Origin: a virus
Taxonomy: Duplodnaviria; Heunggongvirae; Uroviricota; Caudoviricetes
DNA: 19,359 nt
Direction: 5' to 3' (one strand)
Virus record (IMG/VR): IMGVR_UViG_2703718791_000007
Location: 1 to 19,359 of that record
The first letter of the stretch is position 1. Each line of letters starts with the position of its first letter. Under the pieces are notes generated by a model. The model was given only the letters and a program-made list of their open reading frames with translations, ran no database searches and had not been told where the DNA came from. The position numbers and the translations under genes were made by a program. Shown here in pieces: positions 1-19,359 of this stretch.

Positions 1-103
1 GTATTCCGAAAAATGGCAACGACGAACGCATTCCGTCTGGCGTCACCGCCACTGGCACGCATCTGCCTTCACGGGGATTTGCAACGATTTGGCCGCCGCC
101 TCA
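1..103. repeat. Left arm of a 103-bp perfect inverted repeat (reverse complement of 261..363)
   Basis: Direct comparison: reverse complement of 261..363 equals 1..103 base for base; identity stops at position 104/260. The arm reaches window position 1, so its true length may be larger. Contains the first 30 codons of a gene I homolog on the plus strand. Confidence 0.9.
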
Positions 104-260
104 GCCTGTATGTGAACACGGCAGCGGAAGCCATCCGTGCCCTGTCGATGCAGATGCCGGGATTCCGCCGCCAGATGAACGAAGGCTGGTACCAGATACG
201 TATTGCTGGTGAGGACACGGCACCGGAGGCGGTGTATGCCCGCCTTCACGAACAACTGGG
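13..260 (+). pseudogene. I: Tail assembly protein I, 5' fragment (codons 1-83) in inverted orientation relative to K; ORF runs on into the inverted arm and ends at 321
   Basis: Plus ORF 13..321 begins MATTNAFRLASPPLARICLHGDLQRFGRRLSLYVNTAAEAIRALSMQMPGFRRQMNEGWYQIRIAGED, collinear with lambda gpI as recalled (MAATHTLPLASPGMARICLYGDLQRFGRRIDLRVKTGAEAIRALATQLPAFRQKLSDGWYQVRIAG). After codon 83 it reads into the inverted arm and loses similarity. Confidence 0.7.
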
Positions 261-992
261 TGAGGCGGCGGCCAAATCGTTGCAAATCCCCGTGAAGGCA
301 GATGCGTGCCAGTGGCGGTGACGCCAGACGGAATGCGTTCGTCGTTGCCATTTTTCGGAATACCTCTCCCGTTTACTCAGTTGTTCAGGCAGATGGTGAA
401 GCAGTTCACCGTTGCCGCAGTAAATGGCGGCATGATTGGCCACCGATGCGCCAAAGCAGCACAGCAGGATATCGCCAGGCTGTGCGGAAGGCAGGGAAAT
501 CCTGTAAAAACCAGTCGCCTCCATATTGTCCAGGTAAAGGTTCTGACCGTTGCGCCACCAGTCATCCTCACGCTCAAAATCCGGCATATCAATTCCCGCC
601 AGATGGTAGGCATCCCGGAACAGCGTGTAACAGTCCGTCACCCCGTGCTCAAAGCGCCGTCCTGTCAGATGTGGCACACAGCGGAATTTATGAATTTCCC
701 CCCGGCAGACCAGCCACCAGAACAGTGCACTTTTTATCTGCAGCCGCCGGTCGGCCTCGCTCAGCCAGGGCAGACCACCGGGATGACTGTGGACCAGTGC
801 CACAATCTCCCCCTGCATCTCTGCCCGCAGCCAGTCTTCCGGTGCGATACGAAAATACGCCTCCGGCTCTGCAGAGATATTCACACAAGGGATATACCGT
901 TCCCCCTCCGGCGTGCTTATCACGAAGCCGCACGACTCCGCAGGCGCACACCGCCGGGCATGCGCCAGAATCGCTGATTCAGTCTGTGTCAT
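246..992 (-). CDS. K: Tail tip assembly protein K (JAMM/MPN metalloprotease motif plus NlpC/P60-like domain)
   Basis: Starts MTQTESAILAHARRCAPAESCGF at ATG 990..992, inside track ORF 246..1253. Contains HSHPGG...SEAD (JAMM-type motif) and DCYTLF (NlpC/P60-type Cys). Strong similarity to lambda gpK as recalled. The last 4 codons lie in the 157-bp segment between the inverted arms. Confidence 0.9.
   Translation of the reverse strand: MTQTESAILAHARRCAPAESCGFVISTPEGERYIPCVNISAEPEAYFRIAPEDWLRAEMQGEIVALVHSHPGGLPWLSEADRRLQIKSALFWWLVCRGEIHKFRCVPHLTGRRFEHGVTDCYTLFRDAYHLAGIDMPDFEREDDWWRNGQNLYLDNMEATGFYRISLPSAQPGDILLCCFGASVANHAAIYCGNGELLHHLPEQLSKRERYSEKWQRRTHSVWRHRHWHASAFTGICNDLAAASPSCS
261..363. repeat. 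Right arm of the 103-bp inverted repeat; carries the K 3' end and an I-type start codon on the minus strand
   Basis: Same comparison as the left arm. On the minus strand, ATG at 349..351 opens MATTNAFRLASPPLARICLHGDLQRFGRRL, which matches the lambda gpI N-terminus as recalled. Confidence 0.9.
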
Positions 993-1002
993 AAAACAGG
1001 AT

Positions 1003-1701
1003 TTACTGCGAAAGTTTATTGATGGAAAGGAAACCGCCAAAATTGACCGCCATGCCGCGCATCTCACACCCGCGCATGCATTTACTGCATCTGTCCTTCC
1101 GGATATCCGTGGTGGGTTTATCGAACTCATCCGCCACAGCCCCGCCCGTGTAACCACACTCATCAGAGCGGTAGGTCCACATACAGGTGTTCGCCAGCAT
1201 GATACGACCGGGAAACAGCGCTCCGTCCGTCTCGGTCGGTGTGGCCAGCACAAACGAGGCCGTCATGGCTGTCAGCTGCGACATCTGCTCCACCACCCAG
1301 CGGTCGCTCAGCTCCTGCTCCGGGTCCGCTTCCGGATTGCCCGCCACAAAATTCACCGCATCCAGAAAACGGGCATACACCCGGCGGCGGACCACCGTGG
1401 CCCCCACCAGGCTCTGCAGGTCCTCCGCCATCCCGGTGACCAGACCAAACAGATTGGACACCGTCAGCGACGGTCTGGCACTGCTGCCCTTCCCGTTCAT
1501 CTCAAAGCCACTGCCGTCAATCGGGTATGCCTGATATTGCCGCCCCTGCCAGGTGACCGCCTCCCCTTTTTCATTCAGCTCATTGCAGAAAAAATACCGC
1601 TCACCACCCTGTACCGTCAGGTCGATTTCCCAGAGTACCACCCGCGGTGACTGCTCTGATTTAACCGACTCGTTCAGACTTTCTTCGTGAATATCCTGCA
1701 T
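1003..1701 (-). CDS. L: Minor tail protein L
   Basis: 232-aa ORF, MQDIHEESLNE...FGGFLSINKLSQ, with the C-terminal Cys cluster; collinear with lambda gpL as recalled. Its ATG overlaps the M stop as ATGA. Confidence 0.92.
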   Translation of the reverse strand: MQDIHEESLNESVKSEQSPRVVLWEIDLTVQGGERYFFCNELNEKGEAVTWQGRQYQAYPIDGSGFEMNGKGSSARPSLTVSNLFGLVTGMAEDLQSLVGATVVRRRVYARFLDAVNFVAGNPEADPEQELSDRWVVEQMSQLTAMTASFVLATPTETDGALFPGRIMLANTCMWTYRSDECGYTGGAVADEFDKPTTDIRKDRCSKCMRGCEMRGMAVNFGGFLSINKLSQ

Positions 1702-2030
1702 CAGTTCACCACCTGCTTAAACTCGGCACTGAATTCAACCCGCAGCATGCGAACCCGTGATGACCAGGCGGCACAGGTCACCTTTATCTGCCGCTAGGCA
1801 TAAGGCGGTGTCCACAGAAACGCCTTCCAGCCACCGTGCTCTGCCAGGAATGCCTCCAGATGTCGGGCCTCCTCCCGGGTCACGGAAAGCGTCACACGGT
1901 ATGTTTTCAGGTCAGCATTCAGCCCCGCCGCCATACGCTGCGAATACCCGTCACCAAAACGCACTTCACGCACCGATGGCTGCGAGTTCACCTCCATATC
2001 CGGCTTCACTTTCCAGCGAAATGTTTTCAT
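1701..2030 (-). pseudogene. M: Minor tail protein M interrupted by an in-frame TAG at 1794..1796 (codon 79 of 109)
   Basis: ORF 1794..2030 gives MKTFRWKVKP...FLWTPPYA then TAG. Continuing in the same frame gives RQIKVTCAAWSSRVRMLRVEFSAEFKQVVN then TGA at 1701..1703, matching the lambda gpM C-terminus as recalled (YEWRQIKVTCAKWSSRVSMLRVEFSAEFEQVVN). The TAG sits where lambda has Trp. Confidence 0.85.
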
Positions 2031-4582
2031 CGCCTGCCTCCGGAAAAGACGCCGCCATCACGCATCTGCGCCTGAATCTCATCCTGCGCCCCCTTGCGGG
2101 CCATGTCATACACCGCCTTCATCAGCTGCGGCCCCGCCTGTCCGTTGGTGCCGTCGTTCTGAATCACCACGTGATTGTTCTGATTAAAATTAATGCCTTC
2201 CGTCCGCCGCATCTGCGCCGGACTTCCGGCACCGCCGACATAACCGCCATCCGCATACCCCCGCATCAGACGGTACAGGTTGCCGACACCAATCCGGCTG
2301 GTTGCCTCCTTCGTGAAGACAAATTCACCACGGTGAACAATCCCCGCTGGCTCATATTTGTCGCCGGTTCCCGTAAATCCTCCGGTTGCAAAATGGAATT
2401 TCGCCGCAGCGGCCTGAATGGCTGTACCGCCTGACGCGGATGCGCCGCCACCAACAGCCCCGCCAATGGCACTACCGATACTCCCGACTATCCCCACCAT
2501 CGCCTGCTTCAGAAAAATCTCTGTCAGCATGGAGAGCACAGAACGGGTGAAACCACGCCAGTTCTGTTCGCTGCCGGTCAGCATCGCTGCCATATTCTGT
2601 GCAATACCGTCAAAGGTCTGCGTGGCCACGCTTTTAACCTGCGAAAAACTGTCCGTCGCACTTTCTGCCCACTCGCCCCAGCCGGACTTCAGACCGGCCA
2701 TCCAGCTTCCACGAAGCTGCTCCTCCGCAGACCAGGTGTTCTTCAGTGCAGATGTGGCCTTCGCCAGCGCATCCGGATTATCACCGTACACGTCACGAAG
2801 GCGCTGCTCTTCCGACTCCCGCTGCGCCTGACGGTCGGTGAGGCCGCGGGCTTTTGCGCTGATGGCTGCCTGCTTCGCGCTCTGCTGCTGTTCAAACCGC
2901 GCCGCCTGCTGTGCCAGCTCATTCAGCCGTTTCTGGTGTTCAACCTTGTCGCCAAGCTCAGCCAGCTGGCGTTTGTACTCCAGCGTCTCTTTCTCATGGG
3001 CCAGCAGGGATTTTTCCTGCTCAGATAACTGGCGTTTCGTGGCAGCCTCTTTCAGGACCGCATACTGATTTTCCGCTTTCCATAAATCGCGACGCTGCTG
3101 GCTGATTTTCTCATTCGCACCGCTGTGTTTTTCCAGCGTCCGGAGCTCGGTTTCAAGCGCCAGCAGGGCTGCATGCGCCCGGTCTTCCTGGCGCTCACCG
3201 GCAGACACCTTCACAGCAGATGGCTTTTTCAGCGTCGACTCATAATCCTTTTTCGCCGCCGCCATCAGCGTGTTGTAATCCGCCTGCAGGATTTTCCCGT
3301 CCTTCAGTGCCTTGTTCAGTTCTTCCTGACGGGCGGTATATTTCTCCAGCGGCGTCTGCAGCCGTTCGTAAGCTTTCTGCGCCTCTTCGGTATATTTCAG
3401 CCGTGACGCTTCAGTATCGCTCTGCTGCTGCGCATTTTTGTCCTGTTGACTCTGCTGTTCAGCCTTCTTTCTCGCGGCTTCAAGCGCAAGACGGGCCTTT
3501 TCACGATCATCCCAGTAACGCGCCCGCGCTTCATCGTTAACAAAATAATCATCCTTGCGCAGACTCCAGATGTCGTCCGCTTTCTTAAACGCAGCCTCTG
3601 CCTTAATCAGCATCTCCTGAGCGGTATCAGGACGACCAATATCCAGCACCGCATCCCACATGGATTTGAATGCCCGTGCTGTCCTGTCTGCCCAGGTCTC
3701 TAGCGTACCCATGTTCTCTTTCAGGCGGCGGGTCTGGTCATCAAATCCTTTCGTCGCGGCCTCGTTCGCCGCCTGCAATGCCCCGGCTTCATCGCCGGAA
3801 CGCTGCAACTGAGCAACATACGCAATCTGCTCCGCCGTCACGTTATGGAACTGGCGTGCCATCGCTGTCAGCCCTGACGTCGGGTCTGTGGTCAGCTTCC
3901 CGAAGGCTTCAGCGACCTTGTCCACCTCCACGCCGGATGCAGAGGAGAAACGCGCCACACTCTGGCTGATGGATGCAATCTGAGCCTCACCGCTTACTCC
4001 CGCCTTAACCAGTGCGCTGAGTGACTCGCTGGTCTGGTTAAACGTCAGCCCTGCCGCCTGCCCGGCTCTGGACAGGACCAGCATACGATCTGCCGTCAGA
4101 CCCGACTGATTGCCGGAAAGGACCAGCGTTTTGTTGAAATCGGACAGGGTTGAGTTGCCCTGATACCAGGCATACGCCAGCGCACCTGTCGCCACCGCCA
4201 GCGAGGTGACCCCGACCATCGGCAGGGTGATCGCACCGGCAAGCCCCCTGAACATGGGGATCATCCCGCCGAAGGAGTCCTTCACCTGACCGCCCTGTTG
4301 CAGCAGGATCAGCCAGGGATTCTGACCACCGGCAAGCTGCGTGGCGATATCCGTAAACTGTGCGGGCAGGGTTCGCATGGCCGCTTTATACTGCCCGACG
4401 GAAATCCCGGCTTTTTGTGCAGCCAGCGCCTGACGACTCAGGTTCTGCTCAACGACACCGGCGGTTTTTCTGGCGTCAGTCTCCAGTCCGGAAAAATGAC
4501 GCCTTACCCGGCTCATCTGCTCATCGAAACGGACCGCATCCAGACTCAGGTCAATAACAAGATCACCAACCGGCTGGGACAT
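2027..4582 (-). CDS. H: Tail tape measure protein H
   Basis: 851-aa ORF MSQPVGDLVIDLSLDAVRFDEQ...GGVFSGGRR, near-collinear with lambda gpH as recalled; long coiled-coil middle region and Gly-rich C-terminal region. Confidence 0.95.
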   Translation of the reverse strand: MSQPVGDLVIDLSLDAVRFDEQMSRVRRHFSGLETDARKTAGVVEQNLSRQALAAQKAGISVGQYKAAMRTLPAQFTDIATQLAGGQNPWLILLQQGGQVKDSFGGMIPMFRGLAGAITLPMVGVTSLAVATGALAYAWYQGNSTLSDFNKTLVLSGNQSGLTADRMLVLSRAGQAAGLTFNQTSESLSALVKAGVSGEAQIASISQSVARFSSASGVEVDKVAEAFGKLTTDPTSGLTAMARQFHNVTAEQIAYVAQLQRSGDEAGALQAANEAATKGFDDQTRRLKENMGTLETWADRTARAFKSMWDAVLDIGRPDTAQEMLIKAEAAFKKADDIWSLRKDDYFVNDEARARYWDDREKARLALEAARKKAEQQSQQDKNAQQQSDTEASRLKYTEEAQKAYERLQTPLEKYTARQEELNKALKDGKILQADYNTLMAAAKKDYESTLKKPSAVKVSAGERQEDRAHAALLALETELRTLEKHSGANEKISQQRRDLWKAENQYAVLKEAATKRQLSEQEKSLLAHEKETLEYKRQLAELGDKVEHQKRLNELAQQAARFEQQQSAKQAAISAKARGLTDRQAQRESEEQRLRDVYGDNPDALAKATSALKNTWSAEEQLRGSWMAGLKSGWGEWAESATDSFSQVKSVATQTFDGIAQNMAAMLTGSEQNWRGFTRSVLSMLTEIFLKQAMVGIVGSIGSAIGGAVGGGASASGGTAIQAAAAKFHFATGGFTGTGDKYEPAGIVHRGEFVFTKEATSRIGVGNLYRLMRGYADGGYVGGAGSPAQMRRTEGINFNQNNHVVIQNDGTNGQAGPQLMKAVYDMARKGAQDEIQAQMRDGGVFSGGRR

Positions 4583-5434
4583 ATCTCACACCTCCGGAAA
4601 TCCCCGCTGAAGCCATCATTAATGCGGCATCATCCACCATGACATCCGCCACATCCGCAGACGATAAAATCTCACGCCCACCGTCCCCACCAAACCGTAC
4701 GCCTCCGGCAAGTCCTGCCGCTTTCTGCATCAGCATTTTTTCCTCATCCGGCATCTCCGTCTGCGCTTCCTCACGCCGGGGGGCAAGCAGACTGAAATCA
4801 GAGGGATGCATATCCGGATCGCAAAAAAACAGGCTGAGTACGGCGTACGTCAGCCCGGAAAAATGCATATCCAGTTGGGTATCGAGAAAATAATGCGTAC
4901 GGTAAAAATGTCGCCAGTCGGCATATTCGGTGGATGTCATCCCGGCAAGCATGGCGCGCCAGTCAGGCCTCCCCATCTCACGCGCCAGTCTGAGGGCAAA
5001 ATTCAGCTCGCCGTCGAAGACTTTCCCGCAGAAAAATCATCATCAGTCAGCGCGTTATTTTTCGCCACTTCGGTGCTGTCAGTATCCGCATGAACAGCCC
5101 CGCTCATCCCGGACAGACACAACACCACATCTTCCGCCCGGGCAATGGCATCCGCAGGCCAGGTGGTGAGCACCTCCTGTTCGATCTGCATCACAGCCTC
5201 ATTCATTGACGGTGATGCCGTTTTCTGCGGATGGTTATGCCACAGGGACATCGCCACCAGAAACGCGCCGGTTCTGACGAGATCTTCCACGCTTACCTGC
5301 AGGTTGCCGCTGGATTCTGCCTGTTCTGCACGCCGTTTCAGGAGGGCAAGATGCTCAATACGCTGCAGCGCAGACAATTCGGAAAGCGTGACGGACACAC
5401 CGTTATATTCAAATTGTTCTGTTTTCAGAAACAT
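4563..5434 (-). CDS. T: Tail assembly chaperone G-T fusion made by programmed -1 frameshift; T-specific part 4563..5020
   Basis: T frame (track ORF 4563..4976) is contiguous with G through a -1 shift at the heptamer G GGA AAG (minus strand, 5021..5027), the same slippery sequence as lambda G/GT. The post-shift reading VFDGELNFALRLAREMGRPDWRAMLAG joins the T ORF. Confidence 0.85.
5003..5434 (-). CDS. G: Tail assembly chaperone G
   Basis: 143-aa ORF MFLKTEQFEYNGVSVTLSELSALQRIEHLALL...; GGAGG Shine-Dalgarno upstream; slippery heptamer 18 nt before its stop. Similar to lambda gpG as recalled. Confidence 0.9.
   Translation of the reverse strand: MFLKTEQFEYNGVSVTLSELSALQRIEHLALLKRRAEQAESSGNLQVSVEDLVRTGAFLVAMSLWHNHPQKTASPSMNEAVMQIEQEVLTTWPADAIARAEDVVLCLSGMSGAVHADTDSTEVAKNNALTDDDFSAGKSSTAS
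5021..5027 (-). other. Slippery heptamer G GGA AAG for the G to G-T -1 ribosomal frameshift
   Basis: Plus-strand ctttccc at 5021..5027 is GGGAAAG on the minus strand, in the X XXY YYZ register of the G frame (…TCT GCG GGA AAG TCT…). Confidence 0.85.
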
Positions 5435-5447
5435 GTATTACCTCCGT

Positions 5448-6200
5448 TTACCCTGCAGCGCCCGCTTCAGTAACGGTGACTTCAGCCACTGCGGCGAACT
5501 GACCATTTCCGCTCACCACAGGGATCTGCACCTTACCTGTCGCCACGCCGTTTACCGTAATTGTCATATCTTTCACACTAATGGTGGCTTTCGACGGATC
5601 GGCGGAAACCGCTCTGAACGTCTTGTCTGTTGCACTTTCCGGCTCAAAAGAAACCGTCAGGGTGGTTGTTTTCCCTTTTGCCACCGTACCGGATGTCGGC
5701 GTCACCTTAATCGCACTGACCGGCGTAATTTTGCTGCGTTCTTCCGCTACAGAAGGTTTACCCACGTTAGTGACTTTCACCGTGCGGGTGATCACTTCTT
5801 TCGCCGTCACGGCCTTACCGATACTGCTGACCCAGCCACGAAACACATCCACCGTGCCATTCGGAAAACGGATTTTATAGGCCCGGACATCGCCGCTTTC
5901 AAACCAGCCTATAAGCCCTTTCTGGCCTTCCTCTCCCGGTTTCCAGGCCAGCGTAAAACTGGTATCACCTGCAGATTTCTGCCCCTGCCCGGTCGCGGTC
6001 CAGTCCGCGTCTTCATCATCCAGGTAGTTATCATCGTAGGATTCTGCCGTCATCTCGCCCGGCGTCAGATCCTTCACCTTAGCCAGTCGCTGCCAGTCAT
6101 CGTCTGACAACGGGTTTGCATAAGCGTCACCCTGACCGTTGTAAACCCACAGAGTGGTACCGGCACCTTTTACCGGCTCAAGGGGATTTGGTGTTGCCAT
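5448..6200 (-). CDS. V: Major tail tube protein V with C-terminal Ig-like domain
   Basis: 250-aa [34 protein letters not shown]...; position between U and G and size match lambda gpV; the C-terminal ~90 aa look like a Big_2-type Ig-like domain. Confidence 0.9.
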
Positions 6201-6207
6201 ATCGTCC

Positions 6208-6603
6208 TCACATCTCGTATGTAATGGAATAAGTCAGATCTGCAGAACTCCATAACGCCATATCGTCATCACGACGATACTCATAGCCCTGCGTAACCAT
6301 CGTGGTAATCAGTCCTGCCAGTGCCGGGATCGCGGTCATCGCCGGGTAAATCCGGCTTTCCATCCACTGATCAAGCTCTGAATCCGGTACCTGTGCCGGT
6401 AAAAACACCTCAATATGCAGCGTGGCCCGCCAGGTATCTGCATCCAGCTCTTCACCGGTATACTCTGCATCCGTCAGATAAACCGCGATCGCAGGAAAAT
6501 CCTCTTCGTCAAAAACAACGGGGCGACCATCAAACAGCGTCGCCCCGTGTTCATGCTGCTCGAGTGCATCCAGCACTGCGGCACGAATGTCAGTGTGTTT
6601 CAT
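6208..6603 (-). CDS. U: Tail terminator protein U
   Basis: 131-aa [36 protein letters not shown]...[10 protein letters not shown], collinear with lambda gpU as recalled. Confidence 0.92.
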
Positions 6604-7133
6604 CGTTTTATTGCAATCCTCAGTTGTTGTTTCAGCGCGGATGCCAGTTCTTTAGGCAGGCGTTCACGCCGGATACGGTCAACATTCTCATCAAATGCCT
6701 GTTTCAGTGGGGCCGCCATCGGGATTTTCACCACATCAATGGGGTAACGGTTTTTCCCGGCCACACGCTGCATGACATGCCAGCGACCATTTTTTAATCG
6801 CTGAATAAATGCCCGCTGATACCGATGCTGACCGGCTTTAAGTATGCTGTCCGGACGACGCCCCGGCATCCTGATCCCCAGCTTAATCACAGGGAGATCA
6901 CCGCGGTTAACGATAATTCTGGCATTCGGATTTCTGACCGTCGCCCGTTTCAGTCTGGACCGTTCCTTAACCAGTTTCCGGCGAACCTTTGTCTCCCGGG
7001 CAACCTGTGATGAAGACTGATTAATCGCCGTTGTGGCCACGCGGTTAATGGCCATTGCTGAAGCCGCCGGAATGGCGTTTTTACGAACCCGACTCAGATT
7101 ATCAATCGCCTGCTCAAGCCCTTTTATCGCCAT
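6600..7133 (-). CDS. Z: Tail completion protein Z
   Basis: 177-aa ORF MAIKGLEQAIDNLSRV...[22 protein letters not shown], matching lambda gpZ as recalled; 4-nt overlap with U. Confidence 0.9.
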   Translation of the reverse strand: MAIKGLEQAIDNLSRVRKNAIPAASAMAINRVATTAINQSSSQVARETKVRRKLVKERSRLKRATVRNPNARIIVNRGDLPVIKLGIRMPGRRPDSILKAGQHRYQRAFIQRLKNGRWHVMQRVAGKNRYPIDVVKIPMAAPLKQAFDENVDRIRRERLPKELASALKQQLRIAIKR

Positions 7134-7148
7134 AATTTCACCCTGCGT

Positions 7149-7502
7149 TTATCGTCGCCGGTTAACGGCGGGTGGTTTCCCACGGTTGAGCCAGAGATAA
7201 CAGCTGCCCCCGTCATCCGGAGAAACACGATCCACCCAGAACGTCTCACCATTAATGGTCAGCGTGTCACCACGCCGCACAGCACGAACCGTATCCGTCC
7301 GCACAAATAATGACGGGCTGCTTCCTTCAATACGGACCCCGCCACCGGCAAACCCCAGCGACTCCGGATCGTCAAAAACCCCCTGAACTTCGCTGCCACA
7401 CTGTGCCCCCGAGGTGAACTGCGCACAGAGCCCCATCACTTCAACAATCGTGCTGTCCACCCCGGCGAGGGCAGCATCAAAGGCATTCTGAAAATCACGC
7501 AT
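7149..7502 (-). CDS. FII: Head-tail connector protein FII
   Basis: 117-aa ORF MRDFQNAFDAALAGV...DRVSPDDGGSCYLWLNRGKPPAVNRRR; the C-terminal half is nearly identical to lambda gpFII as recalled. Confidence 0.9.
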   Translation of the reverse strand: MRDFQNAFDAALAGVDSTIVEVMGLCAQFTSGAQCGSEVQGVFDDPESLGFAGGGVRIEGSSPSLFVRTDTVRAVRRGDTLTINGETFWVDRVSPDDGGSCYLWLNRGKPPAVNRRR

Positions 7503-7878
7503 GCTCAGCCGTTCCGTGCTGTATCATGGCTGTCGCCAGTGGTGATGGCACCAGAACACGCATGCCCCGGTACGTCAGTTCAACGGGACGGCCTGTCTCC
7601 GGGCAATACCCCATCACATGCAGGCATTTCCGCACACGGACCGCTTTAACATCATCCGTAGCATCAGTGTTGTGCAACTGCTCACCATCGTCTGTGTGAT
7701 TTTGCTCAGGCCCGCTCTCATCACCAGGCATAATGCCCTCCCGGGAAGCAGCAAGCTCCTCTTCCCACTCAGACACACGTTGCGCAATATCCGCAGCACT
7801 CCCCGACATATCCGCCTCGCGCCCCAGCAGGCCAGCCAGTTGACGAAGACGTTTCTGATTTTCTTCTTTTGTTGCCAT
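7495..7878 (-). CDS. FI: DNA packaging protein FI-like
   Basis: ATG at 7876..7878 with AGGGGG Shine-Dalgarno; product MATKEENQKRLRQLAGLL...; sits in the lambda FI position between E and FII. Sequence similarity to lambda gpFI is weak, so the call is positional. The track ORF start at 7926 is an upstream non-ATG extension. Confidence 0.65.
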   Translation of the reverse strand: MATKEENQKRLRQLAGLLGREADMSGSAADIAQRVSEWEEELAASREGIMPGDESGPEQNHTDDGEQLHNTDATDDVKAVRVRKCLHVMGYCPETGRPVELTYRGMRVLVPSPLATAMIQHGTAEHA

Positions 7879-7893
7879 ATCAGCCCCCTGTGA

Positions 7894-7921
7894 AAAAAGA
7901 CACGGGGGCATTTCGCCCCCG
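7894..7921 (-). terminator. Intrinsic-terminator-like hairpin plus U-tract between capsid gene E and FI
   Basis: Plus gggggc(atttc)gccccc at 7904..7920 gives a 6-7 bp GC stem; on the minus-strand transcript it is followed by UGUCUUUUUU (plus aaaaaa 7894..7899). Confidence 0.45.
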
Positions 7922-7929
7922 CTCACGGA

Positions 7930-16533: not shown

Positions 16534-17024
16534 GTATCCTCCGGATAATAAAAAGCCAGCTTAGTGCACTGAGTGCGGATATATTCCTGCGCCCCTTCCA
16601 GCTGCTTCTGCATTGTCATCAACCGTTCTCTGAGGATGAAATAATCCCGTTCAGCGGTGTCTGCCAGTCGGGGGCCGGTTGCATTATCCACGCTGGAGGT
16701 GCCGGTGGCTTCACGCACGGTACCGGGGCAGGTGGCGTTGACCCGCAGGCGCTTACGACCAGCGGCAACATCAGCGCGCAGAGTTTCAATTTCAGCTCTC
16801 GCATCGGCTAATTCCTTCGTGTATCTGGCATCAAGCGCAGCGACATCTCGCTGGCGCTGCTGCATGTCAGTAATAGTGGCATTCGCCAGTTTCAGCTCAC
16901 TGACTTTTTTATCGCGCTGCGCTTTGTAGGTGATGGCGTTATCGCGGTAATGATTCAGCCCCAGACTAAGCACACCACAGGCTACCAGCAGGACAATAAT
17001 CACCACACACAGAACACGGTTCAT
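16530..17024 (-). CDS. Rz: i-spanin Rz
   Basis: From ATG 17022..17024: [78 protein letters not shown]…[26 protein letters not shown], closely matching lambda Rz as recalled. The track ORF start at 17108 is an upstream non-ATG extension. Confidence 0.93.
16619..16804 (-). CDS. Rz1: o-spanin Rz1, lipoprotein embedded in the +1 frame of Rz
   Basis: [61 protein letters not shown]: lipobox VSAC, Pro-rich mature part, and near-identity to lambda Rz1 over [27 protein letters not shown] as recalled. Confidence 0.9.
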
Positions 17025-17242
17025 ATCACCACCAACGGATTGCCCAGACCAGAACAGCAATGGCCACAATACGAATGGCAAATGCCATTGCCCGAATAAG
17101 TTCAGCACTCATCTTTTTAAAGTTCACGATTTCAGCGCAATGACCAGTTTTGCCAGCCCATACAGCATCGGAGACACAGCAATACCAACAGCCACCCACT
17201 TAATAGCAAAAGCCAGCGCTCTGCTGATGTCATCAGTCACTG

Positions 17243-17374
17243 TCACCCCAGCAGCCCCGACGAAGACAACATCACCCAGGCGAGGGACAGAAAAAGAGCA
17301 ACCAGCATTAGTGAAAATGAAATACCGACAATCACACACAGGACCTTTGCCGGCGTTATGAGTTTGTCTGACAT
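17243..17374 (-). CDS. Candidate small membrane protein, 43 aa, in the R-Rz spacer
   Basis: Hand-translated MSDKLITPAKVLCVIVGISFSLMLVALFLSLAWVMLSSSGLLG; AAGGGG about 5 nt upstream of the ATG. A second hydrophobic reading (…DDISRALAFAIKWVAVGIAVSPMLYGLAKLVIALKS) follows in another frame. Confidence 0.35.
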   Translation of the reverse strand: MSDKLITPAKVLCVIVGISFSLMLVALFLSLAWVMLSSSGLLG

Positions 17375-17543
17375 AGCTACCCCTTAATTGCCACAATTAA
17401 CTGGGATACTACCCATAAAAAAGGGATGCTCCAGACCAGCAAAAATTTCCAGTTTGGTAATTGACTAATCATGAGTCGCAACTCCCTAATCAGTTTGCTA
17501 AAATCAATCAAGGCAGCCTCCCATAGCTTACTGCCATAAAAAC

Positions 17544-17580
17544 AAAACCCCGCTTGCTGCCAACAAACGGGGTTTTTACT
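17544..17580. terminator. Bidirectional intrinsic-terminator-like hairpin about 90 nt downstream of the endolysin gene
   Basis: aaaaCCCCG(cttgctgccaacaaa)CGGGGttttt: GC stem flanked by an A-run on one side and a T-run on the other, so both strands have stem plus U-tract. Confidence 0.55.
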
Positions 17581-17666
17581 TTTATTCACTTACGTTTCGC
17601 CAGTTCGCAGGATTTCATGTTATCCGCCCGCGTGGCCATGCCTTATTTTTCAGCAAAATATTCTGC

Positions 17667-18200
17667 TTATCTGTCGATACCCCAGCACGCCAGCGCGCTC
17701 TCCTGGTCACGACGGGATACCTGACCGTAGCAGTTGTTTGAACGAATACGGCAGTCTCTGCCAGCGTCCTTAATCCACCAGCGAATCGCCTCACATGCTC
17801 CCCTGCGATCACCAGCATTAATTCGTCTGTAAAACGTCGACGGGAAACACTTACCGGGACCAATGTTGTACGGACAGAATGACGCGATCCCCGCTTTCTG
17901 GGGTTCGGTCAATGGCACTTTGATGTTTTTCTCCACCCATGCCAGCGCCTTATCACGTTCGATGGCGTTAACCTGGTCGCATTTCTCCTTCGACAACTTC
18001 ATGCCCGGGACGACAGGTTTACCATCCACCAGAATGGCACCGCGACAGATGGTCCAGATACCCGCGCCATCACGGTATGCCGTGGTGTGGTTACCTTCCT
18101 TTTCATCCAGAAACTGGTCGAGAATGTCAGGCGCAGGCGCACCAGCGGCAATCAGCGCCAGAACGGCAGCCGACAGGCCGTATTTGATTTTGGTGTTCAT
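17667..18200 (-). CDS. R: SAR endolysin (phage lysozyme, T4/P21-type)
   Basis: 177-aa ORF with weakly hydrophobic Gly/Ala-rich N-terminal segment (YGLSAAVLALIAAGAPA) typical of a signal-anchor-release domain, followed by the catalytic E…D…T spacing (EGNHTTAYRDGAGIWT). Resembles the E. coli Qin prophage lysozyme as recalled. Confidence 0.9.
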   Translation of the reverse strand: MNTKIKYGLSAAVLALIAAGAPAPDILDQFLDEKEGNHTTAYRDGAGIWTICRGAILVDGKPVVPGMKLSKEKCDQVNAIERDKALAWVEKNIKVPLTEPQKAGIASFCPYNIGPGKCFPSTFYRRINAGDRRGACEAIRWWIKDAGRDCRIRSNNCYGQVSRRDQESALACWGIDR

Positions 18201-18236
18201 GGATATATTAAATATTCAGCCGCTGTCCCTGGCCCA

Positions 18237-18794
18237 CTAAATACGCACTTTAAGATAAGTCAGCCCCGGATGAAGCCAGTAAGCCGGCACTTTTTTAAAG
18301 GGTGGAGTATTAAAATCACGAAGAAGAGCCTCCCGCACAATTGCATCCTTATCAGCACCACTGGCCAGCGCTTCAATCTCAGCGGCTACCTGAAGATATC
18401 CCATGCAACGGCCAACGCGCTTCATCAGCCCCTGCTTTTTATTGTTCTTCAGGTAATCAATGGCAAATTCAATGAGCTCCTCACTGTGCTGGTGCGATGG
18501 AGGTGTTACTTTCCCATTTTCTGAGATGGTTATTTTCCCAGCATCACCGGATACAACAAAGGATGGCCGGTTACACTCCCATTCCAGCTCACTGAAATTA
18601 TCATTATGAATACTGAAACACTCTGAGAGATTTCTGCTCATCACTTTCCGACAATAATCGTCAAACGCAGCAAACTGCTCATCGCGGCGTTTTTTTTCAT
18701 CTTCAGAAGGCATCAGCGTCGACAGTTTTTTATTCAGTTCAGCAATTTCATTTTCCAGACGACTGAAGCGCTGATTCATTTCTTCATGGTTCAT
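18237..18794 (-). CDS. Hypothetical soluble protein, ~185 aa, between holin and endolysin genes
   Basis: ORF MNHEEMNQRFSRLENEIAELNKKLSTLMPSEDEKKRRDEQFAAF… (ATG 18792..18794; GTG 18795..18797 abuts the S stop). Predicted coiled-coil N-terminus, no hydrophobic segments. Local base composition looks more AT-rich than the tail genes. Family not recognised. Confidence 0.7.
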   Translation of the reverse strand: MNHEEMNQRFSRLENEIAELNKKLSTLMPSEDEKKRRDEQFAAFDDYCRKVMSRNLSECFSIHNDNFSELEWECNRPSFVVSGDAGKITISENGKVTPPSHQHSEELIEFAIDYLKNNKKQGLMKRVGRCMGYLQVAAEIEALASGADKDAIVREALLRDFNTPPFKKVPAYWLHPGLTYLKVRI

Positions 18795-18797
18795 CAC

Positions 18798-19013
18798 CTA
18801 ATCTCCCCGGGCAGCCTTGCGACGGTCCTCTTTAATTTTGAAATACAGGTTAGTCAGATACGTCAGCAGGCCAAACAGCAGACTCCCCAGCACACCTATC
18901 GCCACCCACTGGGACGGAGAGACTTTGTCCAGCAGCTGCAATAACCAGTATCCCGTCCCCACCGCTGACGTGGTGTATGACACACCTGTTGTGATTTTTT
19001 CCATCTGGTACAT
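18798..19013 (-). CDS. S: Pinholin, phage 21 S-type class II holin with dual-start motif
   Basis: 71-aa [74 protein letters not shown]; strongly resembles S21 and E. coli essD as recalled; Met1/Met4 dual start; two transmembrane segments. Confidence 0.92.
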
Positions 19014-19048
19014 ACCCCGTCTCCCGTTATCCGGAAGCTCACAACATG

Positions 19049-19078
19049 AAAAAGGCCAGCAGCTGTTTACTGATGGCC
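19049..19078 (-). terminator. Weak hairpin plus U-tract immediately upstream of S, possibly a tR'-like late terminator
   Basis: Minus strand GGCCATCAG-TAAACAG-CTGCTGGCC followed by TTTTTC, 30-35 nt before the S ATG; the stem has one mismatch. Confidence 0.3.
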
Positions 19079-19089
19079 CTGACTCCCCG

Positions 19090-19359
19090 TTACAGCATCA
19101 TGACCGATTCGGGTTGAGGTTCAGTCGCATCGGCGACCGGTGATTCAGGCTGAACTTCACCGCTCTCTGCGGTGGTATCTCCCGCTTCAGTCGGTGGCTC
19201 TGCCTGTACACCAAGCAGCTCATCCAGAATGGCATCAACCTCTGCATCAAGACGCGCTTCCAGGTTATGGCGAAGTTTTTGTTTCAGTGCGCTCAGGACT
19301 TCTTCAGAGCGCAGGACTTCCTTCACTGCCTCAGCAGTGACCAGGGATGTAATTTCTGA
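19090..19359 (-). CDS. 3' part of an ORF running off the window edge; acidic Pro/Glu-rich C-terminus; function unknown
   Basis: The frame is open from the window edge to the stop at 19090: …[89 protein letters not shown]. No homolog recognised; coding status uncertain. Confidence 0.35.

What the first reader, a model, noticed from the sequence alone, without database searches (positions are those of the whole stretch)
1..363. 103-bp perfect inverted repeat puts the start of gene I head-to-head against K
Positions 1..103 and 261..363 are exact reverse complements flanking a 157-bp unique segment. Both arms encode the first 30 codons of gene I, but only the plus-strand reading (13..260) continues into authentic I sequence; the minus-strand reading (43..351), which is the orientation expected after K, becomes nonsense inside the segment. 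So the K/I junction is duplicated and the I 5' fragment is inverted relative to the rest of the operon. This is either a real fold-back or inversion breakpoint truncating the tail operon, a recombination-prone invertible segment, or an assembly artefact at a contig end; the arm reaches position 1, so its full extent is unknown.
Basis: seen in the sequence. Interest (0 to 1): 0.6.

Follow-up and report, generated by a model that had tools for sequence, protein, structure and literature searches.

The report
Fold-back chimera at a contig end
The 103-base inverted repeat is real in the deposited sequence, but it comes from a single abnormal join at the very end of a draft E. coli contig, linking one prophage's tail gene K to the start of gene I from a second, similar prophage in reverse, and is most likely a sequencing or assembly chimera rather than biology.

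Summary
Positions 1-103 and 261-363 are exact reverse complements around a 157-nt segment. No other inverted repeat in the window comes close.

The window is the whole of draft contig LOGC01000185.1 (E. coli GCA_001606595.1, 19,359 bp), so position 1 is a contig end.

The anomaly reduces to one non-native junction at 260/261. From 19359 down to 261 the contig is collinear (99.8-99.97%) with a defective lambdoid prophage, "A". Bases 1-260 are the K/I boundary read backwards. They differ at 7 sites from the I allele of every A-type relative. They are 100% identical to a second prophage, "B", carried in the two closest complete genomes.

The junction lies on the best native quasi-palindrome of the K-I region (12/14 matches, 5 exact). 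That stem closes the predicted single-strand fold.

Sister prophages sharing two amber mutations with the contig have a normal K-I-sodC-J. The junction and the K tail it creates occur in no other public contig searched.

Best reading: a snap-back chimera carried into a contig end inside a multi-copy prophage repeat (about 0.75). A real in-vivo inverted duplication uses the same anatomy and cannot be excluded without reads (about 0.15). An invertase-type switch is rejected. Interest is low.

The parts
261..19359 (-). Body of the contig: prophage A late operon (lysis genes, Nu1, A, W, portal, protease, D, E, FI, FII, Z, U, V, G, T, H, M, L, K). It is collinear with complete genomes.
   Evidence: One-piece match at 99.8% to E. 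coli OkiPb01713 2367726-2386847. Matches of 99.9-99.97% to L005-L008.
246..992 (-). Gene K (JAB + NlpC/P60 tail-tip assembly peptidase), 248 aa. Its last codons cross the junction, so the tail reads SPSCS* instead of the native SACM*.
   Evidence: This exact protein occurs on only one contig among about 15 billion proteins. The other nine cluster members whose sequences were read (of 6,975) end in SACM or SACT.
261..363 (-). Right arm: the native 3' end of K overlapping the lambda-style start of I (ATG at 351). It is collinear with the operon and lies inside a 283-nt block that is identical in prophages A and B.
260..265 (.). The only non-native junction. The operon strand reaches S[103] (window 261) and then continues with the reverse complement of S[260]. 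Five nt of exact microhomology (TGAGG/CCTCA, window 261-265) make the precise crossover point ambiguous.
   Evidence: The junction 26-mer is absent from genome contigs, viral contigs and metagenome contigs. No complete E. coli genome holds it in one piece.
104..260 (+). Loop: authentic gene I, codons about 31-82 of the long form, including the native K stop and the NCBI-style GTG start at 112. It is in inverted orientation and carries the prophage-B allele.
   Evidence: Seven differences (171, 205-207, 237, 243, 255) from all five closest A-type loci (L002, L005-L008); L001 and L004 share most of them and carry further ones. 100% identity to prophage B of OkiPb01713 and 2013C-4974 and to four other genomes. 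Pfam Lambda_tail_I.
1..103 (+). Left arm: the same K-end/I-start sequence in inverted orientation, ending at the contig end.
90..103 (+). Arm 1 of the native quasi-palindrome (TGGCCGCCGCCTCA). Its native partner in prophage B is S[261..274], TGAGGGGGCGGTCA. In the contig that partner is replaced by the perfect complement at 261-274.
   Evidence: 12/14 matches, the best pair in the K-I region. Frequency among random fold-back junctions is 5e-6. This stem closes the predicted single-strand DNA fold in both the minimum-energy and centroid structures.

Best explanation
The inverted repeat is the footprint of one chimeric fold-back junction at the end of a short-read draft contig. The steps below are inferred unless marked as shown. 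The sequenced strain carries at least two lambdoid prophages. Their K/I boundaries share a 283-nt identical block (shown, for the closest complete genomes). In the I gene of prophage B, a native 14-nt quasi-palindrome lies 157 nt apart from its partner. In single-stranded DNA the two arms can pair. A 3' end can then snap back or pair with a sister fragment and be extended, for example during end repair or amplification. The product runs forward to S[103] and then backwards from S[260]. Because both sides of that junction lie in or next to the block shared by A and B, the assembler attached the product to the prophage-A contig. It then extended through ordinary prophage-B reads read backwards, and stopped 103 nt after re-entering sequence it already held in the opposite orientation. 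The result is a perfect 103-nt inverted repeat, an altered K tail and a truncated, inverted I. None of these is expected to exist in the cell.
For: The window equals the whole contig LOGC01000185.1, 19,359 bp, so the arm stops at a contig end. Most assemblies break this prophage into 10-20 kb contigs: 220 of 282 blocks. There is a single non-native adjacency at 260/261 with 5-nt microhomology. The loop carries a different allele from the contig's own prophage lineage at 7 sites, consistently in the five closest A-type loci. It is 100% identical to a second, oppositely oriented prophage 1.5 Mb away in the closest complete genome, and likewise in 2013C-4974. The junction sits on the best native quasi-palindrome of K-I, 12/14, chance about 5e-6, and this stem closes the predicted ssDNA fold. 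Chimeric reads of exactly this anatomy, forming at near-perfect native inverted repeats with the intervening sequence inverted, are documented for sonication and enzymatic libraries (PMC10908179). Sister prophages sharing both amber mutations with the contig (L004, L005, L007) have a normal K(247 aa)-I-sodC-J. The chimeric K occurs on one contig only. The junction is absent from three collections and from 5,426 complete E. coli genomes. In the OkiPb01713 background, a real A-to-B join of this polarity would amount to a 1.5-Mb deletion spanning the region between the prophages (inference from the strands).
Against: No reads are available, so junction coverage is unknown. Assemblers usually prune low-coverage chimeric links, so survival of this junction suggests appreciable support or a permissive assembler. 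My prediction that the contig would end where A and B diverge failed: identity continues for 113 nt past position 1. The 103-nt arm length is therefore unexplained. It would fit a k-mer of about 103, which I could not verify. The sequencing platform and assembler of GCA_001606595.1 could not be found. Draft E. coli assemblies are poorly covered by the DNA collections searched, so recurrence of the junction is only weakly tested. Presence of prophage B in the source strain is inferred from relatives and was not shown.
Confidence: 0.75

Rival explanations
1. This is a real in-vivo fold-back: a snap-back or template-switch inverted duplication of the tandem-inversion-duplication or ODIRA type. 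During replication, a nascent strand in a prophage folded back at the native quasi-palindrome in gene I and copied itself. This created a large inverted duplication whose head-to-head junction is what the contig shows. The assembler stopped because the far arm repeats the contig in reverse.
For: The junction lies at a short, interrupted native inverted repeat. That is the defining junction type of the in-vivo models (PMC4689423, which also cites Kugelberg et al. for Salmonella tandem inversion duplications). The junction survived assembly. The prophage is already defective, with two amber mutations, so losing I and J would cost nothing. A different small inversion in the same K/I region exists in the complete genome of strain C7, showing that this region can rearrange in vivo.
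Against: The junction is unique to one draft contig. Sister lineages are collinear. The loop allele is that of a different prophage from the contig body. A real event would therefore have to lie within prophage B or a recombinant and be attached to A only through the shared repeat. From established knowledge, such duplications are unstable and usually seen only under selection. A second junction and a raised copy number are required, and neither can be seen here.
Confidence: 0.15
2. This is a real rearrangement between two prophages: an illegitimate A x B join at the microhomology, giving an inversion or deletion breakpoint.
For: The two sides of the junction carry alleles of two different prophages.
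Against: In both complete relatives, A and B lie in opposite orientation. A join of this polarity would then delete about 1.5 Mb of chromosome, which is not viable (inference). Homologous recombination between A and B would give a collinear hybrid, not a head-to-head one. Both arms lie in the 283-nt block shared by A and B, so no A-specific base actually flanks the junction within 216 nt. No inter-prophage event is therefore needed.
Confidence: 0.05
3. This is a programmed invertible segment: a recombinase-driven switch flipping the 157-nt loop between 103-nt inverted repeats.
For: There are perfect inverted repeats flanking a short segment next to tail genes, which superficially resembles the Gin/Cin/Pin-type switches of tail-fibre genes.
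Against: Relatives have one copy of the arm, not two. No invertase or recombinase is annotated in the 99.8%-identical syntenic region. Neither orientation yields a complete I, because the rest of I and J are absent. The structure is explained by one junction rather than by two recombination sites.
Confidence: 0.02

Closest known systems
Inverted-repeat-mediated chimeric reads from NGS library preparation (self-priming / PDSM model; PMC10908179)
   Same: One strand is joined to its own or a sister molecule's complement at a near-perfect native inverted repeat. The sequence between the repeat arms appears inverted. Mismatches within the repeat are overwritten by copying: here G266 and T272 of prophage B are replaced by the complement of arm 1.
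   Different: Those artefacts are described at read level, with arm spacings of tens of bases. Here the spacing is 157 nt, and the product has been built into a deposited contig and annotated as a protein (WP_062896701.1). Read-level support could not be examined.
Tandem inversion duplications / ODIRA-type inverted amplification junctions (Kugelberg et al., cited in PMC4689423)
   Same: A head-to-head junction that preserves a short, interrupted native inverted repeat and its spacer.
   Different: Those are in-vivo events with a second tail-to-tail junction and a 3x copy number, usually recovered under selection. Neither feature can be assessed here, and relatives lack the junction.
Lambda tail-tip assembly genes K and I, with their overlapping reading frames
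   Same: K carries JAB + NlpC/P60 domains and I carries Lambda_tail_I. The long I start overlaps the K 3' end by about 100 nt, as in lambda (from my own knowledge: lambda K 14276-14875, I 14773-15444).
   Different: Here K has an abnormal 5-residue tail, and I is represented only by an inverted 5' fragment of about 82 codons.
Balanced K/I inversion in E. coli C7 (NZ_CP010240)
   Same: It is in the same gene pair and uses a short native inverted repeat (about 14 nt) at its breakpoints.
   Different: In C7 there are two junctions, no duplication, different breakpoints (ref 3690/4142 against 4040/4202), and the inversion sits in a finished genome.

Membership tests
Fold-back chimera (in-vitro snap-back/PDSM artefact incorporated at a contig end) | A single non-native adjacency joins a strand to the complement of nearby sequence. 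Everything on either side is native. | tested here: met
   Window 19359..261 is collinear with the references and 260..1 is native sequence in reverse. The only break is at 260/261.
Fold-back chimera (in-vitro snap-back/PDSM artefact incorporated at a contig end) | The junction coincides with a native near-perfect interrupted inverted repeat. | tested here: met
   12/14 quasi-palindrome with 5 exact bases at the join. It is the best pair in K-I, with chance about 5e-6, and it closes the ssDNA fold.
Fold-back chimera (in-vitro snap-back/PDSM artefact incorporated at a contig end) | It lies at the end of an assembled contig, in repeated sequence, with no continuation. | tested here: met
   The window is the entire contig LOGC01000185.1. 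There is a 283-nt exact repeat between prophages A and B.
Fold-back chimera (in-vitro snap-back/PDSM artefact incorporated at a contig end) | The junction is supported by only a small minority of reads and is absent from long reads or PCR. | not testable with these tools
   There is no access to the raw reads of GCA_001606595.1.
In-vivo tandem inversion duplication / ODIRA-type inverted duplication | [quoted passage not shown] | tested here: met
   This feature is shared with the artefact class, so it does not discriminate.
In-vivo tandem inversion duplication / ODIRA-type inverted duplication | [quoted passage not shown] | not testable with these tools
   This needs read depth and the other contigs of the assembly.
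In-vivo tandem inversion duplication / ODIRA-type inverted duplication | Heritable: present in clonal relatives or in independent assemblies. | tested here: not met
   Sister prophages with the same two amber mutations are collinear. The chimeric K is on one contig only. The junction is absent elsewhere. Coverage of draft genomes in the searched collections is limited.
Site-specific invertible DNA switch (Hin/Gin/Cin/Pin type) | A serine invertase, or another recombinase, is encoded next to the segment. | tested here: not met
   No recombinase appears among the 31 annotated genes that lie under the 99.8%-identical syntenic match in OkiPb01713.
Site-specific invertible DNA switch (Hin/Gin/Cin/Pin type) | Inverted-repeat sites are present natively in related elements, and both orientations encode a functional product. 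| tested here: not met
   Relatives have a single copy of the arm. Gene I is truncated whichever way the loop lies (sequence).
Lambda gpK / gpI tail assembly proteins | Pfam Prok-JAB + NLPC_P60 for K, and Lambda_tail_I for I, in the order L-K-I. | tested here: met
   (K, L, and the plus-strand I fragment). The order L-K is confirmed, but I is present only as an inverted 5' fragment.

The most novel reading that the evidence does not exclude
The junction is real and captures, in a natural E. coli isolate, a snap-back inverted duplication formed at a quasi-palindrome inside the K/I overlap of a defective lambdoid prophage. That would be a natural example of the tandem-inversion-duplication or ODIRA type of rearrangement, which is normally seen only under laboratory selection.
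Probability: 0.12. Interest if true: 0.4.

Novelty: not a real feature. Interest (0 to 1): 0.08.

Why it matters
As biology it probably does not matter. It matters as data hygiene. A public draft contig ends in a chimeric fold-back, and this has produced a non-existent K protein variant now held in RefSeq and UniRef (WP_062896701.1). It would also make this prophage look truncated at gene I in any automated survey. It illustrates that perfect inverted repeats at contig ends inside multi-copy prophage regions should not be read as inversions or switches. If the junction turned out to be real, it would be a modestly interesting natural example of quasi-palindrome-primed inverted duplication.

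Tried and rejected
1. I predicted that the contig would end exactly where prophages A and B stop being identical, as a graph fork would. This failed: identity continues 113 nt beyond position 1. The 103-nt arm length stays unexplained.

2. My first exact look-ups of the chimeric K (and protein 3) used a start one codon short and are void. I repeated them correctly.

3. I searched for the junction 26-mer in genome contigs, viral contigs and metagenome contigs and found nothing. These collections hold few draft E. coli genomes, so this is weak evidence.

4. The two 102-aa ORFs created by the repeat are not in the protein collection. That is uninformative, because they were evidently never called as genes.

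5. I looked for a paper on LOGC01 or neighbouring accessions to learn the platform and assembler, and found none.

6. I looked for homopolymer indels as a sign of 454 or Ion Torrent long reads. There are none: only 16 substitutions and one 13-nt indel relative to OkiPb01713.

7. The C7 two-piece hit looked like a second instance of the junction. It is a different, balanced inversion.

8. I checked the terminal 700 nt of eleven related loci for fold-backs and found none. Only L008-L010 reach real contig ends.

9. An assembler-only false join without chimeric reads is rejected: the two sides share only 5 exact bases, far below any usable k-mer.

Full report
**Observation.** Positions 1..103 are the exact reverse complement of 261..363, and 157 nt (104..260) lie between them. 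With two mismatches the arms extend to 109 nt. The next-best inverted repeat anywhere in the 19,359-bp window is 25 nt at 76%. The repeat is therefore far beyond chance.

**Context.** The window is the late operon of a lambdoid, Stx-phage-like prophage on the minus strand. It runs from the lysis genes through Nu1, A, W, portal, protease, D, E, FI, FII, Z, U, V, G, T, H, M and L to K. K occupies 246..992 on the minus strand and carries JAB + NlpC/P60 domains. L occupies 1003..1701. The plus-strand ORF 13..318 matches Pfam Lambda_tail_I (E 4.8e-12). The minus-strand ORF 46..351 matches nothing. The native K stop lies 12 nt beyond the arm, so K acquires the tail SPSCS* in place of SACM*.

**Anatomy.** I aligned the window against phage JLK-2012 (L001). 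The window's minus strand is collinear up to reference position 4040. It then continues at reference 4202 on the opposite strand and runs back to 3938, which is window position 1. Write S for the native K-end/I-start sequence, with S[1] corresponding to window 363 and to window 1. The contig is then ...K-S[1..103] followed by the reverse complement of S[1..260]. There is a single non-native adjacency, at window 260/261, with 5 nt of exact microhomology (CCTCA/TGAGG). The inverted repeat exists simply because the two native pieces overlap by 103 nt of reference coordinate.

**Provenance.** An exact look-up of the chimeric K found one contig: NCBI GCA_001606595.1, LOGC01000185.1, length 19,359. 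The retrieved 10,992 bases are identical to the window. The window is therefore a complete draft contig and position 1 is a contig end. The tape-measure protein of this prophage occurs in 282 blocks of the collection. In 220 of them the longest contig carrying it is 10-20 kb. Short-read assemblies thus routinely break this prophage into pieces of the window's size.

**The inverted piece comes from a different prophage.**
- From 19359 to about 261 the contig matches E. coli OkiPb01713 in one piece at 99.8%. It matches five other assemblies at 99.7-99.97%.
- The folded-back 265 nt match those same loci at only 96-98%. All differences from the five closest loci fall in the loop, at 171, 205-207, 237, 243 and 255.
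- Window 1..260 is 100% identical to six complete genomes.
- In OkiPb01713 the identical copy lies at 841,573-841,832 in a second lambdoid prophage, "B". That is 1.5 Mb from prophage A and on the opposite strand. The same holds in strain 2013C-4974.
- A and B are identical over a 283-nt block, S[-113..170], which contains both arms.

**The junction sits on a native quasi-palindrome.** In prophage B the sequence after S[260] is TGAGGGGGCGGTCA. This is an imperfect inverted copy (12/14) of S[90..103], TGGCCGCCGCCTCA. It is the best such pair in the whole K-I region. Among 200,000 random fold-back junctions drawn from the same locus, 5e-6 had 12/14 or better and 1.2e-3 had 5 or more exact bases. 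When native B sequence is folded as single-stranded DNA, this stem is the closing helix in both the minimum-energy and the centroid structures. In the contig the two mismatched bases of arm 2 have been replaced by the perfect complement of arm 1. That is what copying from arm 1 as a template would produce.

**Relatives lack the junction.**
- The contig carries two amber mutations: terminase A CAG to TAG at 13477..13475, and M TGG to TAG at 1796..1794. Four independent assemblies share both (L004, L005, L007, L009).
- The three of these that extend past K have a normal K (247 aa)-I (193 aa)-sodC-J.
- No complete E. coli genome out of 5,426 holds the junction in one piece.
- The junction 26-mer is absent from the genome, viral and metagenome contig collections.
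- The chimeric K occurs on one contig among about 15 billion proteins.
- The other nine cluster members whose sequences were read (of 6,975) end in SACM or SACT.

**Interpretation.** Both the in-vitro and the in-vivo mechanism use this anatomy. Library-preparation chimeras form at near-perfect native inverted repeats, with the intervening sequence inverted (PMC10908179). In-vivo tandem inversion duplications and ODIRA junctions likewise preserve short interrupted inverted repeats (PMC4689423). What tips the balance toward an artefact is the combination of five points:
- The junction is at a contig end, inside a multi-copy repeat.
- The two sides carry alleles of two different prophages, while both arms lie in their shared block.
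- The junction is unique to this contig.
- The sister lineages are collinear.
- A real A-to-B join of this polarity would delete 1.5 Mb in the arrangement seen in relatives (inference).

I put the artefact at about 0.75, a real intra-prophage snap-back duplication at about 0.15, an inter-prophage rearrangement at about 0.05, and an invertase-type switch at about 0.02. The switch is rejected for three reasons. No recombinase is annotated in the syntenic region. Relatives have a single copy of the arm. Gene I is truncated in either orientation.

**Weak points.** Five things remain open:
- No reads were available.
- The platform and assembler could not be identified.
- My graph-fork prediction for the position of the contig end failed, so the 103-nt arm length is unexplained. 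A k-mer of about 103 would fit but is unverified.
- The presence of prophage B in the source strain is inferred from relatives.
- The UniRef name string for the chimeric K says n=5. This may only reflect merged sub-fragments, but it was not resolved.

**Errors corrected.** and protein 3 used a K start one codon short. They are void and were superseded.

Noticed in passing
L003 2559..3010 (E. coli C7, NZ_CP010240.1 4118867-4119318): A finished genome carries a balanced inversion of the K 3' half plus the I 5' part (JLK-2012 reference about 3690..4142). The breakpoints overlap by about 14 nt, which implies a short native inverted repeat. NCBI annotates four partial pseudogenes there. The breakpoints and topology differ from those of the window.
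   Followed up: partly
window 13475..13477 and 1794..1796 (minus strand): There are two amber mutations: terminase large subunit A (CAG to TAG, splitting it into 394-aa and 264-aa ORFs) and minor tail protein M (TGG to TAG, 78 aa instead of 109 aa). Both are shared with four other assemblies (L004, L005, L007, L009) and absent from L006, L008 and OkiPb01713. This marks a defective prophage lineage.
   Followed up: yes
window ~16217: A 13-nt deletion relative to OkiPb01713 prophage A, in the small-ORF region between the lysis cassette and Nu1. It is the only indel in 19 kb.
   Followed up: no
L002 7821..8348; L004 15104..15631: In collinear relatives a sodC (Cu/Zn superoxide dismutase) gene sits on the opposite strand between I and J. 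The contig stops before reaching it.
   Followed up: no
window 246..992 (protein KYS01078.1 / WP_062896701.1): The chimeric K protein is in RefSeq and UniRef as an ordinary 'C40 family peptidase'. The UniRef100 name string gives n=5, which may only reflect merged sub-fragments of native K.
   Followed up: partly
L013 24554..27122 and L012 6929..10401: The tail-tip gene J is annotated as frameshifted in OkiPb01713 prophage A and in 2013C-4974 prophage B. This is further decay in these prophages.
   Followed up: no
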